From Haliotis rubra (lineage: Eukaryota), in contig NW_025766968.1 of NCBI RefSeq assembly GCF_003918875.1, positions 5,642,001 to 5,706,000 of the forward strand: DNA of 64,000 nt, written 5' to 3'. Below, in pieces: positions 47,201 through 50,200 of this stretch; position 1 is the stretch's first letter; every line of letters starts with the position of its first letter. Position numbers: made by a program.

Positions 47201-50200
47201 AGGGTCAAGGGAGCAGGGGCTGACCAGTTTGCAGCTAGGTTTCGTAATTAGACTGTTGGCTGGAAACATTAATCGCTCTGGATCAGTGGCCCTTTAATGT
47301 TGAAAGGTCTCTAAATCTAAGGAAATAGAAAGTCTGAAGTTTGCACAAAACGACAATTTTATGGCCCAGTTTGCATGCCAACTTCTTATTTTGAAATCCA
47401 AGATACCTCCCTTGCATATGTGTACAGGTTACAATCAGTGCCTGAAATTGGGTGCAAATGAGATATGGTGTGAATAATTTGGTTAATTATCAGTTACTTC
47501 TAGATTGGTGTGGGTTGTTAAACTCTTAGCAGCAAATATGAGTTCATTGTTATTCAGATGACTTTTGTAAAACTGTAAATTGGTCCAAACTTTATTTACA
47601 CCTTATTCCTAGTATAACATGTGGAGGACAAATAGGTCACAGTGTTTAGTACCCAAGTACTTTAGTGACTTATCAAAACTGTTAAAGTTTTTGTTATAAA
47701 TATTCCGAATCATTTCAGTGACTGTGCACATTTCCAAATTGTACCATATATACGAAAAAATATGGAGTCGATTATTCATGACAAACACCTCGTACTGCGA
47801 TGACCTTATACTACCAGCATGCGCGTGGATAGCGTGCGCAACGTGCTCACAGAACCATTACTTGTCCATTAATCCTGATTGACACTGTGCGGTACATGCG
47901 GAGAAATCGTGCTCAGTGGAATATTGAGTGATTTGACAGCTGCGCTACAGCTTCCGCGCACGTTGCGTCACCATCGCTGCAGCACGTGCACTTGAGTTGT
48001 ATATTACATACTTGCCACACCCACAAACCCCCATAATGATTAAAATCATGGTGCTATCTCTGCCTCTTCTATGGTAGTCTATTTCAGCCTGTCGTGGTTG
48101 TCTGTTCAAGGCCGTAGATGCAGTAGACTACCTGAGCCTGTTTACCACGTGTTACATTCCGGAATCCGTCTCAAAACGAGGCAAATGCCGCACAAAAAAC
48201 TAAACGCATCGCATATCTGTGTTCACCAATACATTAGAGACAAATACAATGTATATTAGATAACAACGTGCCAAATATATCGTACACTGTTAAAATTTAA
48301 CGGCAAGAGCACTGGCACCTCAAACTCAGCTGATAATCGGCTCGAGCGTGCCGTGGAGCACCTGCCGTGACCGTTGACCCTTGACCTAGCTGAGTCATGT
48401 GACCTGCTTCGCTCTCCATCTTGAAACAAGGTTGGAGATTCATCGACAACTTGGATGCGGTAGCCAGCCTTGCTTTTCTTCTCTCTCTCGCGACAGCATC
48501 TTTTGTGTGGATTGTTCACAAAACCGGATAAAATGTTCCGGAAAAGAAGTACGAAGGGTGAAGTTCAAACGGAATACTCATGTAGTATCCGTTTTCTGGA
48601 CGATTCGGAACCAATTCAACTAAATTTCAAGGTATGTAACTGTTCACTGACAGAGTGCAACTGTGCATTGAGCAGATGTTTACCGGTGCTATTTAGTAAA
48701 CAAAGGCAAGGCTTTAGTGGTCTTTGAAACTGACAACACCCATCTTCACACTGTTTTACGTAGCGTTACACTGTGCAATTATCAATATCTTCACCCCGAT
48801 CAAAGACGCTTTCAAACGGCCTTGTATGGATATGCACACACCAATTTCAATTTGAGGCGCGATTTCGTTAACAGTGGTAATCGCTCTTCAAAGAAATCTA
48901 ACGGGCTGCGCCTTGGCGTTTTGCAGAAATGTGTGCATTTGCTAGGGACGTCACATCTGCAAGCAAACTAGCTAACGAAATTGTTTTTCACGGCCTGTGA
49001 ACATTCAGGCCAGTCTGAAAGTTTTAGAATAAGTCAAATACGCACAGTAGTTGTAGTGTATCCGAGTGTAACGGTGCACTGTTATGTTTTCACCGTAACT
49101 GTAGCAGAGGCTATCTTTCGGGACTGATATTCCAAAACAATGCAGGAACATTTCTATAGGTGCAACATTGTTAAACACTAAACAGTATTCTTTCTTCACT
49201 TCCTAATATAGTTTACATGTTATTTGATGCAGTTCTATGTGTTAAAGGATATTTTTGCCAATAGGTTTGTCATTACTCTTTCACTGAATTTTATAAACCA
49301 ATGTACTGTTGCTTCTAAATAAGGTTAAATTAAGAATTCCCAATCAGTATAACAACTTGTAACAGTGTACATTAACATGGTTTGAAACTACTGTTCTCTA
49401 GGTCTATCAAGATAACATTGTTTGAATTTATACTCTCTTATTGATTGAAACCTGAGTCAGAAATTCATTGCACACATAGATTAATTGCACGCTGCAGTGA
49501 TAAAATGCTGTTATACTGTAAATAGCTTTGGCTACTTGGACACATTAACCATAGTCTGAAACTAACATGATACAGGTAAACTTGATTTCAGTTAGGTAAT
49601 ACATTGTTATTTACAGTTTCTCTAAATCATCTGAAACATATTTTAATGATGTGAGCCTCAAGTGTTTGGGCACCATTGTTTGGCTAAATATCTTCATGTA
49701 TCATTCCTGTATATATGTTCACCTGTACACCAGTACCCAGATTTAGATGAGACAAAGGTTTAGCTATCCTTCTGCTCCGTGTGAGACAGAGATATGCAAT
49801 ATGTCCCCTATGAACTTTGATACCCCCAGATATCATCCCTCTTGAAAAGTAGACGGTAAAATGTTTAAGACTATTTAAAGACTATTAGTGGATATTCCAT
49901 GCATCAATGTGACATGAACAATCACATTTATTCGTTCTCTGTTTGATCATGTCTATTAATCTTTAAATAGGCTTTGTATTGTAAACAACAGGAATAGGAT
50001 ATTTATACTTTAAATTATAACCACTGAACTAAAGGAAGTGACATGTTTTTCTGTTCATTGATATTTTCTTATCATAGAGGATAAAAGTGTTTGTGCCTTC
50101 CTTTTATACCAGTAACCATGCTCAATATTATCCTGTGGTCTAGGAAATATATCCCACAGCACTACAATTGTAAGTCATCCATATCATTTTGTGGTTAGGT

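What the first reader, a model, noticed from the sequence alone, without database searches (positions are those of the whole stretch)
48012..48631. IDNK and a FRMD3/5-like gene head-to-head: possible ancient microsynteny
Seen: the start codons are 483 bp apart on opposite strands. Recalled knowledge: human IDNK and FRMD3 are divergently oriented neighbours on 9q21.32. If the exon assignment holds, the linkage predates the protostome-deuterostome split, which suggests a regulatory constraint.
Basis: partly seen in the sequence, partly recalled or inferred. Interest (0 to 1): 0.65.

Follow-up and report, generated by a model that had tools for sequence, protein, structure and literature searches.

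The report
Abalone IDNK and FRMD3/5 head-to-head
In this abalone genome the sugar-acid kinase gene IDNK and a FERM-domain gene of the FRMD3/FRMD5 type start 483 bases apart on opposite strands, and the same two genes also lie together in a brachiopod, an oyster and vertebrates, so this is probably one more ordinary example of very old gene neighbourhood.

Summary
The window is Haliotis DNA, closest to H. rubra.

- **IDNK (minus strand).** It has five GT-AG exons from 48049 down to 37310. Each exon piece is an exact substring of H. rubra gluconokinase.
- **FRMD exon (plus strand).** The 33-codon exon at 48533-48631 is 100% identical to the N-terminus of the gene RefSeq names "FERM domain-containing protein 5-like / 3-like" in four Haliotis species. 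Only this exon is in the window; intron 1 is longer than 15.3 kb.
- **Spacing.** Exactly 483 bases separate the two ATGs. Both first exons sit in one roughly 1.4-kb stretch where CpG is not depleted.

The "ancient microsynteny" reading is partly supported.

- **Seven species tested.** I could place both genes in seven species. In 7 of 7 they share a sequence record of the same length. In 5 of 7 (four Haliotis, the brachiopod Lingula) their RefSeq accession numbers are consecutive.
- **Vertebrates.** Papers place IDNK and FRMD3 in one 250-kb window in rabbit and in salmon, and in one chromosome 9 region in human.

Not tested: orientation outside abalone, any invertebrate deuterostome or ecdysozoan, and any regulatory constraint. 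The divergent orientation in human is recalled, not checked. The finding is a new member of a known kind (conserved ancestral microsyntenic pairs). Interest is modest.

The parts
48012..48049 (-). IDNK (gluconokinase) exon 1: ATG at 48049-48047, MILIIMGVCGCG plus two bases of a split Lys codon; donor GTATGT at 48011-48006
   Evidence: exact substring of H. rubra P0143 and H. asinina P0001
48050..48532 (.). 483-nt spacer between the two start codons; holds both 5' UTRs and presumably both promoters. TSSs are unknown
   Evidence: motif matches at CACGTG 48146, TTCCGGAA 48157-48164, three TGACC half-sites 48368-48386, TGAGTCA 48391 (found post hoc)
48533..48631 (+). FRMD3/5-type FERM gene, first coding exon (33 aa); donor GTATGT at 48632. 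Residues 19-33 are the start of FERM_N in the full-length H. rubra protein
48632..64000 (+). FRMD intron 1, at least 15,369 nt, running off the window; no further FRMD exon inside the window
   Evidence: 7 of 7 FRMD queries matched the window only with residues 1-33
47650..49100 (.). CpG-undepleted, island-like stretch spanning both first exons
   Evidence: 200-bp windows starting 47600-48900 have CpG o/e 0.73-1.31, against 0.54 for the whole window and 0-0.28 in the flanks (window starts 47300-47500 and 49100-49700)
47850..47897 (-). alternative 5' coding exon of IDNK, as annotated in H. asinina isoform X3 (16 of 16 residues identical); gives a protein without the P-loop exon
47753..47779 (-). 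alternative 5' coding exon of IDNK, as annotated in H. asinina isoform X2 (9 of 9 residues identical)
43132..43162 (-). IDNK exon 2: completes the Lys codon, then TTVGKAMAKK (end of the P-loop)
42392..42478 (-). IDNK exon 3: [29 protein letters not shown]
   Evidence: TIGR01313 8.3e-7 for the exon alone
38933..38976 (-). IDNK exon 4: DRIPWLTSIHQYIK plus two bases of a split Thr codon
37307..37661 (-). IDNK exon 5 (117 whole codons) and stop codon TAA at 37309-37307
   Evidence: TIGR01313 6.2e-23 for the exon alone

Best explanation
This is a real divergent (head-to-head) gene pair in an abalone genome. One gene is the GntK/IdnK-type gluconokinase IDNK. The other is the single mollusc gene of the FRMD3/FRMD5 type: FERM and FA domains followed by a hydrophobic segment near the C-terminus.

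The two ATGs are 483 nt apart inside one roughly 1.4-kb CpG-undepleted stretch. The most likely mechanism in abalone is a shared or tightly abutting TATA-less promoter region that fires in both directions (inferred, not shown).

The neighbourhood is old. It is present across Haliotis, very probably in a brachiopod and an oyster, and the same two genes lie close together in vertebrates. So it most likely dates back at least to the bilaterian ancestor, as a conserved ancestral microsyntenic pair. After the vertebrate genome duplications IDNK would have stayed beside FRMD3 only (recalled). Whether selection or slow neutral decay keeps the genes together is open.
For: **Gene identity**
- All five IDNK exon pieces are exact substrings of H. 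rubra gluconokinase P0143, and all four introns are GT-AG.
- P0143 scores 175.7 bits on TIGR01313, above the 113.75-bit cut-off. Window exons 5 and 3 alone give 6.2e-23 and 8.3e-7.
- FRMD exon 1 is 100% identical to 12 Haliotis FRMD5-like entries; 18 of 18 candidates scored are FRMD5 or FRMD5-like.
- Full-length H. rubra P0123 has FERM_N, FERM_M, FERM_C and FA.
- P0123 has a hydrophobic 19-mer ending 40 residues from its C-terminus. The Lingula, Saccostrea, Tubulanus and Octopus proteins have one ending 35-47 residues from theirs.

**Promoter**
- CpG o/e is 0.73-1.31 in 200-bp windows starting at 47600-48900, against 0.54 window-wide and 0-0.28 in the flanks.
- There is no TATAAA between the two ATGs.

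**Age of the linkage**
- FRMD and IDNK accession numbers are consecutive, on a record of the same length, in four Haliotis species:
  - H. asinina: FRMD isoforms listed XP_067666590..600, IDNK 606-609
  - H. rubra: FRMD isoforms listed XP_046574405..421, IDNK 423-424
  - H. rufescens: FRMD isoforms listed XP_046350852-862, IDNK 863
  - H. cracherodii: FRMD isoforms listed XP_071118135..163, IDNK from 173 (numbers run in steps of about 9)
- The same holds in Lingula anatina: FRMD5 XP_013417694/695, IDNK 696/697, both on a 390,577-bp scaffold.
- In Saccostrea cucullata both genes are on a 637,204-bp scaffold: FRMD XP_062580053-57, IDNK 070.
- In Pomacea both are on a 23,556,918-bp record.
- In salmon, frmd3 and idnk are listed in one 250-kb window. 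The same holds in rabbit. [quoted passage not shown]
- The window calibrates the accession-order proxy: it shows the two genes physically adjacent in a genome whose proteins equal those of H. rubra.
Against: - No TSS or RNA data are available, so sharing of one promoter is inferred from spacing and CpG content only.
- The island's CpG o/e is not extreme for this window. Its 400-bp windows give 0.77-1.08, below the window's 95th percentile of 1.10.
- Accession order and equal record length are proxies for adjacency. They say nothing about orientation.
- In Saccostrea 12 accession numbers lie between the listed FRMD isoforms and IDNK. These could be further isoforms or other genes.
- In Pomacea the only evidence is a shared 23.6-Mb record.
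- No invertebrate deuterostome, annelid, ecdysozoan or cnidarian was tested for the pair.
- Orthology to vertebrate FRMD3/FRMD5 rests on RefSeq names and domain architecture, not on a tree.
- By my recall the human genes are tens of kb apart, so a conserved bidirectional promoter cannot explain the vertebrate linkage.
Confidence: 0.7

Rival explanations
1. The adjacency is ancestral but is kept by inertia only. The two genes have separate, merely abutting promoters and no shared regulation. The pair has survived because rearrangement is slow in molluscs, brachiopods and vertebrates.
For: - Nothing tested here shows co-regulation.
- The functions are unrelated: a metabolic kinase and a membrane-cytoskeleton adaptor.
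- FRMD3/5 is not, to my knowledge, the kind of developmental regulator typical of regulatory-block targets.
- By my recall the human spacing is tens of kb.
Against: - Irimia et al. 2012 (passages read) report that conserved pairs are enriched in the 5'-5' orientation and in co-expression. Their simulations give a false-positive rate below 0.0002 per pair at their cut-off of four or more lineages, so they argue such pairs are selected.
Confidence: 0.3
2. The vertebrate and lophotrochozoan adjacencies arose independently, by chance or convergence, and the bilaterian ancestor did not have them.
For: No lineage between lophotrochozoans and vertebrates was tested here. The Drosophila miranda passage read names dpr21 and Pten, not a gluconokinase, beside Frmd5, although it does not list the gene on the far side of Frmd5.
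Against: Two named, unrelated genes becoming neighbours twice is improbable. By my estimate (inference, no call) the chance is about 2 in the number of genes, or about 2 in 1000 if both were already on one ancestral chromosome. The pair is seen in Mollusca, Brachiopoda and vertebrates.
Confidence: 0.05
3. The 33-codon exon is not a used exon, or it belongs to another FERM family.
For: Pfam gives no family for the 33 residues alone. No downstream exon lies in the window.
Against: - The exon is 100% identical to the N-terminus of models in four Haliotis species, whereas IDNK differs by about 20% between H. asinina and H. rufescens or H. cracherodii.
- It is 70-85% identical to Gigantopelta, Patella and Octopus FRMD5.
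- It has a canonical GTATGT donor and an in-frame stop upstream.
- All 18 of 18 scored candidates are FRMD5 or FRMD5-like.
Confidence: 0.02

Closest known systems
Conserved ancestral microsyntenic pairs (CAMPs) of Irimia et al. 2012, Genome Res 22:2356 (PMC3514665; abstract and passages read)
   Same: Two unrelated genes stay next to each other across distant animal phyla. The 5'-5' orientation and short spacer seen in abalone are the features that paper found enriched among its 595 pairs.
   Different: The pair is not named in that paper's main text: the terms FRMD, C9orf103 and gluconokinase each occur 0 times. Its supplementary tables could not be opened, so the pair may already be listed there. 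Only three major lineages are covered here (molluscs, a brachiopod, vertebrates), two of them by proxy or from the literature. Their criterion was four or more of 11 lineages.
Bidirectional (head-to-head) promoters, such as HSPD1-HSPE1, cited. Definition: TSSs less than 1 kb apart (abstract starts in the listing: PMC7817982, PMC2670823, PMC2077898)
   Same: Divergent genes with start codons 483 nt apart, in a TATA-less CpG-rich spacer. A palindromic ETS-type TTCCGGAA lies in the spacer, and GABP/ETS sites are the class reported to drive bidirectional transcription (title and abstract start of PMC2077898, listing only).
   Different: TSSs and co-expression are unknown here. The human counterparts are, by my recall, far more than 1 kb apart, so the promoter sharing itself is not conserved the way HSPD1-HSPE1 is.
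Genomic regulatory blocks (target gene plus bystander gene), and their dismantling after vertebrate genome duplication (PMC7530604; abstract start in the listing only)
   Same: The small housekeeping-type gene (IDNK) sits beside a large gene with a first intron over 15 kb long. In vertebrates it is kept beside only one of the two paralogues (FRMD3, not FRMD5; recalled).
   Different: FRMD3/5 is not a typical developmental transcription factor target. No conserved non-coding elements were or could be examined.

Membership tests
GntK/IdnK-type gluconokinase (NCBIfam TIGR01313) | Profile score above the curated cut-off (113.75 bits) | tested here: met
   H. rubra P0143 contains every window exon piece as an exact substring and scores 175.7 bits. 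The window exons alone score below the cut-off, as pieces must: exon 5 gives 81.3 bits and exon 3 gives 28.9 bits. The joined window model was not searched.
GntK/IdnK-type gluconokinase (NCBIfam TIGR01313) | N-terminal P-loop GxxGxGK[ST] | tested here: met
   GVCGCG is at the end of exon 1, the Lys codon is split between exons 1 and 2 (AA|A), and TT opens exon 2. The motif itself is recalled.
FRMD3/FRMD5 subfamily of the protein 4.1/FERM superfamily | N-terminus matching named FRMD3/5 orthologues | tested here: met
   33 of 33 residues are identical to four Haliotis species; 82-85% to Gigantopelta and Patella; 70% to Octopus. All 18 of 18 candidates are named FRMD5 or FRMD5-like.
FRMD3/FRMD5 subfamily of the protein 4.1/FERM superfamily | FERM_N + FERM_M + FERM_C + FA domains, and a hydrophobic segment near the C-terminus | not testable with these tools
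   Only exon 1 is in the window. The full-length H. rubra protein P0123 has all four domains and a hydrophobic 19-mer ending 40 residues from its C-terminus. That the vertebrate proteins have such a segment is recalled.
FRMD3/FRMD5 subfamily of the protein 4.1/FERM superfamily | Falls in one clade with vertebrate FRMD3 and FRMD5, apart from 4.1/EPB41L, FARP, PTPN and ERM | not tested
   The evidence is names only: isoforms of the one Haliotis gene are called FRMD3-like or FRMD5-like. The nearest solved structure is the Band 4.1-like protein 3 FERM domain at 1.3e-66, and no FRMD3/5 structure exists. Unnamed vertebrate-range hits were not used, so no tree was built.
Conserved ancestral microsyntenic pair (Irimia et al. 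2012) | [quoted passage not shown] | tested here: inconclusive
   The evidence is direct in Haliotis. It is by consecutive accession numbers in Lingula, by a shared 637-kb scaffold in Saccostrea, and by shared 250-kb windows in salmon and rabbit. Other lineages were not testable.
Bidirectional promoter / divergently paired genes | TSSs on opposite strands less than 1 kb apart | tested here: inconclusive
   The ATGs are 483 nt apart. TSSs would be closer still unless a 5' non-coding exon lies elsewhere. No transcript data were available.
Bidirectional promoter / divergently paired genes | Co-expression or shared cis-elements | not testable with these tools
   Only consensus motif matches in the spacer are available. 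They were found post hoc and carry little weight.

The most novel reading that the evidence does not exclude
IDNK and FRMD3/5 form a bilaterian-wide, orientation-conserved divergent pair that selection holds together through shared cis-regulation. In the compact ancestral state, still seen in abalone, this is one bidirectional CpG-island promoter. In vertebrates the spacer has expanded but the two genes still share a regulatory landscape, as hinted by a common eQTL in human. This would couple a gluconate-shunt enzyme to a membrane-cytoskeleton adaptor for reasons not yet understood.
Probability: 0.2. Interest if true: 0.45.

Novelty: new member of a known kind. Interest (0 to 1): 0.3.

Why it matters
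The finding adds one concrete, easily tested pair to the catalogue of very old gene neighbourhoods. The pair has a compact form (483 nt) in a mollusc and an expanded form in vertebrates. That contrast could be used to ask whether deep microsynteny of unrelated, non-developmental genes reflects shared promoters, shared landscapes or mere inertia. By itself it does not change any current view: hundreds of such pairs are known, and this one may already sit in a supplementary table that I could not open.

Tried and rejected
- **Query too short.** I resent it with 7 upstream in-frame codons.
- **Pfam on single exons.** FRMD exon 1 and IDNK exon 3 gave 0 families; IDNK exon 5 gave only a chance-level match, DUF7189 at E 0.18. 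The pieces are too short for Pfam. NCBIfam did recognise IDNK exons 3 and 5.
- **More FRMD exons in the window.** None found. 7 of 7 queries matched only residues 1-33, plus one spurious hit at E 0.071.
- **IDNK of Patella, Gigantopelta and Octopus.** I held the FRMD5 accessions for these species, but their IDNK was not among the best 120, so they gave no test.
- **Literature, main text only.** No paper holds any of these term pairs:
  - IDNK + microsynteny
  - C9orf103 + FRMD3
  - gluconokinase + 'FERM domain-containing protein'

  Other literature results:
  - IDNK + FRMD5 gave one unrelated mouse uterus paper, seen in the listing only.
  - FRMD3/FRMD5 + synteny gave nothing relevant. The D. 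miranda Pten note shows Frmd5 beside dpr21 and Pten and does not mention a gluconokinase.
  - IDNK occurs 0 times in the 15 papers listed for bidirectional, head-to-head or gene-order terms.
  - The main texts of Davila Lopez 2010 and Irimia 2012 do not name either gene.
- **A FERM gene tree.** I dropped it. The only source of vertebrate sequences left was the unnamed list.
- **Bacterial promoter/terminator scan, structure prediction and complex prediction.** Not run, as they are irrelevant to the claim.
- **Rfam and tRNA scans.** These found nothing in the finding's region.
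Full report
**What the window is.** The window has no N and is animal DNA. The last IDNK exon finds 'probable gluconokinase' of Haliotis asinina (91%) and H. rufescens (81%) as its best hits; 489 proteins had E <= 0.001 among 505 candidates. All five IDNK exon pieces are exact substrings of the H. rubra protein P0143. The window is therefore Haliotis, closest to H. rubra. It is not human sequence.

**The observation.** On the minus strand, IDNK starts with the ATG at 48049-48047.

| Exon | Coordinates | Content |
|---|---|---|
| 1 | 48049-48012 | MILIIMGVCGCG plus two bases of a split Lys codon |
| 2 | 43162-43132 | completes Lys, then TTVGKAMAKK |
| 3 | 42478-42392 | [29 protein letters not shown] |
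| 4 | 38976-38933 | DRIPWLTSIHQYIK plus two bases of a split Thr codon |
| 5 | 37661-37310 | 117 whole codons; stop TAA at 37309-37307 |

- All four introns are GT-AG, with lengths 4849, 653, 3415 and 1271 nt.
- The exon lengths sum to 552 nt, or 184 codons. This equals the 184 aa of P0143 and P0001.
- On the plus strand, the ATG at 48533 opens a 33-codon exon ending at 48631 with donor GTATGT. An in-frame stop lies upstream at 48461-48463.
- Exactly 483 bases lie between the two ATGs.

I searched the spliced models exon by exon. Where a whole protein was needed I used the named RefSeq proteins that the searches returned.

**Gene identities: IDNK.**
- P0143 scores 175.7 bits on NCBIfam TIGR01313 (gluconokinase, GntK/IdnK-type), above the 113.75-bit cut-off.
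- Window exon 5 alone gives 6.2e-23 and exon 3 alone gives 8.3e-7.

**Gene identities: the FERM gene.** I resent it with 7 upstream codons.
- It matched 18 of 18 scored candidates, all named FERM domain-containing protein 5 or 5-like.
- Twelve Haliotis entries matched at 100% over the 33 residues. Gigantopelta matched at 85%, four Patella entries at 82%, and Octopus sinensis at 70%.
- Isoforms of the same Haliotis gene are named FRMD3-like or FRMD5-like in turn. This is what one expects of a single gene co-orthologous to both vertebrate paralogues.
- Full-length H. rubra P0123 has FERM_N (residues 19-82), FERM_M, FERM_C and FA. It has a hydrophobic 19-mer ending 40 residues from its C-terminus, as do the Lingula, oyster, nemertean and octopus proteins (35-47 residues).
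- The nearest solved structure is the FERM domain of Band 4.1-like protein 3 (1.3e-66). No FRMD3/5 structure exists.
- I did not build a tree, so orthology rests on names and architecture.
- tblastn with seven FRMD5 proteins found only residues 1-33 in the window (7 of 7). Intron 1 therefore exceeds 15.3 kb and the rest of the gene lies beyond the window.

**The spacer.**
- 200-bp windows starting at 47600-48900 have CpG o/e 0.73-1.31. The flanks fall to 0-0.28, and the whole window is 0.54.
- Both first exons and the spacer therefore lie in one island-like stretch of about 1.4 kb.
- This is consistent with an unmethylated promoter region. It is not extreme for this window: its 400-bp values of 0.77-1.08 are below the window's 95th percentile of 1.10, and other places score higher.
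- There is no TATAAA between the ATGs.
- Consensus matches in the spacer are CACGTG at 48146, a palindromic TTCCGGAA at 48157-48164, three TGACC half-sites spaced by two bases at 48368-48386, TGAGTCA at 48391 and TGACCT at 48400.
- These were noticed post hoc, and no cross-species alignment was possible, so they are leads only.
- Two alternative 5' coding exons annotated in H. asinina IDNK isoforms map inside the island at 47897-47850 (16 of 16 residues) and 47779-47753 (9 of 9).
- Sharing of one bidirectional promoter is my inference from the spacing and CpG content. TSSs and expression are unknown.

**Is the neighbourhood old?** No animal genome collection was available, so I used two proxies from the protein collection: the length of the record that carries each protein, and RefSeq accession order. 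The window calibrates the second proxy. In H. rubra the listed FRMD isoforms carry XP_046574405..421 and IDNK carries XP_046574423-424, and the window shows the genes physically adjacent.

| Species | FRMD accessions listed | IDNK accessions | Shared record length (bp) |
|---|---|---|---|
| H. asinina | XP_067666590..600 | 606-609 | 89,013,229 |
| H. rubra | XP_046574405..421 | 423-424 | 8,320,929 |
| H. rufescens | XP_046350852-862 | 863 | 94,228,061 |
| H. cracherodii | XP_071118135..163 | from 173 (steps of about 9) | 89,134,964 |
| Lingula anatina (brachiopod) | XP_013417694/695 | 696/697 | 390,577 |
| Saccostrea cucullata (oyster) | XP_062580053-57 | 070 | 637,204 |
| Pomacea canaliculata | GenBank record, not comparable | XP_025077201/202 | 23,556,918 |

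- Of the seven species where I could place both genes, 7 of 7 have them on a record of the same length, and 5 of 7 have consecutive numbers.
- In Saccostrea the 12 numbers in between may be further isoforms or other genes.
- Species with only one gene in hand gave no test:
  - FRMD only: Gigantopelta, two Patella, three Octopus, Nucella, Tubulanus, one CAE record.
  - IDNK only: Owenia, C. virginica, Littorina, Lymnaea, Plakobranchus, Biomphalaria, Elysia, Batillaria, Mercenaria, Mytilus, Aplysia, two Asterias, Bulinus, Ylistrum, Ephydatia, Ostrea.
- The proxies say nothing about orientation.

**Vertebrates (passages read).**
- A salmon table lists ubqln1, frmd3, idnk, gkap1, fbxl2, rasef, tle1 and tle4 in one 250-kb window (PMC7896726).
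- A rabbit table lists UBQLN1, IDNK and FRMD3 in one 250-kb window (PMC12224565).
No call checked it.

**Interpretation.** Two unrelated named genes lie together in molluscs, a brachiopod and vertebrates. By my rough estimate, independent origin has a chance of order 1e-4 to 1e-3 per pair. Ancestral linkage in the bilaterian ancestor is therefore the best reading (about 0.7).

The pair fits the class described by Irimia et al. 2012: 595 conserved ancestral microsyntenic pairs, enriched in the 5'-5' orientation, in short spacers and in co-expression (passages). Whether this pair is maintained by selection is untested. The compact abalone arrangement suggests a shared promoter. The expanded vertebrate one, if my recall is right, would need a shared landscape instead, or no constraint at all.

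**Is it in print?** The searches, and the look-ups in the main texts of Irimia 2012 and Davila Lopez 2010, found no statement of this pair as conserved synteny. Supplementary tables, where such pairs are listed, were closed. The pair may already be catalogued there.

**What stayed unchecked.**
- Gene order and strand in any genome other than the window.
- All invertebrate deuterostomes, annelids, ecdysozoans and cnidarians.
- A FERM gene tree. The 144 unnamed representatives that could be vertebrate or human were not used.
- Transcripts and TSSs.
- Non-coding conservation.

**Verdict.** The deep linkage is probable but only partly tested, and the regulatory constraint is not shown. The finding is a new member of a known kind, of modest interest.

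Noticed in passing
window 5833-7311 (+) and 13281-14702 (-): Two intronless Peptidase_M28 (carboxypeptidase Q-like, by my reading) ORFs are 93% identical in protein. They lie in a 1359-nt inverted repeat (5955-7313 / 13291-14649, 94%) with 5977 nt between the arms. This looks like a recent inverted duplication.
   Followed up: partly
window 20022-30053 (+): A snurportin-1 (SNUPN) gene lies tail-to-tail with IDNK. The first coding ORF hits Pfam Snurportin1 (3.2e-9) and the last-exon ORF hits SPN1_m3Gcap_bd (7.8e-11). By my recall human SNUPN is on 15q, the chromosome arm that also carries FRMD5. If so, the abalone trio SNUPN-IDNK-FRMD3/5 would map to the 9q21/15q paralogous regions. This was not checked.
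   Followed up: partly
window 47850-47897 and 47753-47779 (-): These are alternative 5' coding exons of IDNK, as annotated in H. asinina isoforms X3 and X2. They sit in intron 1 inside the CpG-rich stretch. Those isoforms lack the P-loop exon.
   Followed up: partly
window 48146-48164 and 48368-48405: The spacer holds consensus matches: CACGTG, a palindromic TTCCGGAA, three TGACC half-sites two bases apart, TGAGTCA and TGACCT. The triple half-site pattern occurs once in the window against 0 in 100 shuffles, but it was defined after seeing it.
   Followed up: partly
window 39109-40183: A 16-nt minisatellite of 68.9 copies (83% matches) lies inside IDNK intron 3. It produces long spurious ORFs on the minus strand.
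   Followed up: no
window 23472-24650: A satellite with nested periods of 29, 58 and 331 nt lies inside a SNUPN intron.
   Followed up: no
window 54432-54527: Three perfect copies of a 32-nt unit that ends in TTAGGG-type telomere-like repeats lie inside FRMD intron 1.
   Followed up: no
window-wide, e.g. 2534-2606, 8301-8313, 23356-23368, 61208-61220: Many tRNA-derived SINE-like copies are present. There are 15 matches to a tRNA B-box-like 13-mer against 0.5 expected. One Rfam tRNA match scores 34.5 bits at 2534-2606, but ARAGORN does not call it. The recurring frame translations such as '...NIPAISRRGTPEMGFTHC...' belong to these copies.
   Followed up: partly
window 3141-3506 and 17301-17952 (+): Decayed transposase remnants of Tc1/mariner type, by my reading. 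There is a weak DDE_3 match (0.0027) and HTH-type matches.
   Followed up: no
Lingula anatina proteins P0228 and P0493 (not in the window): Lingula has two separate 'probable gluconokinase' records with consecutive numbers (XP_013417696, XP_013417697), directly after FRMD5. They may be a tandem duplicate or two alleles.
   Followed up: no
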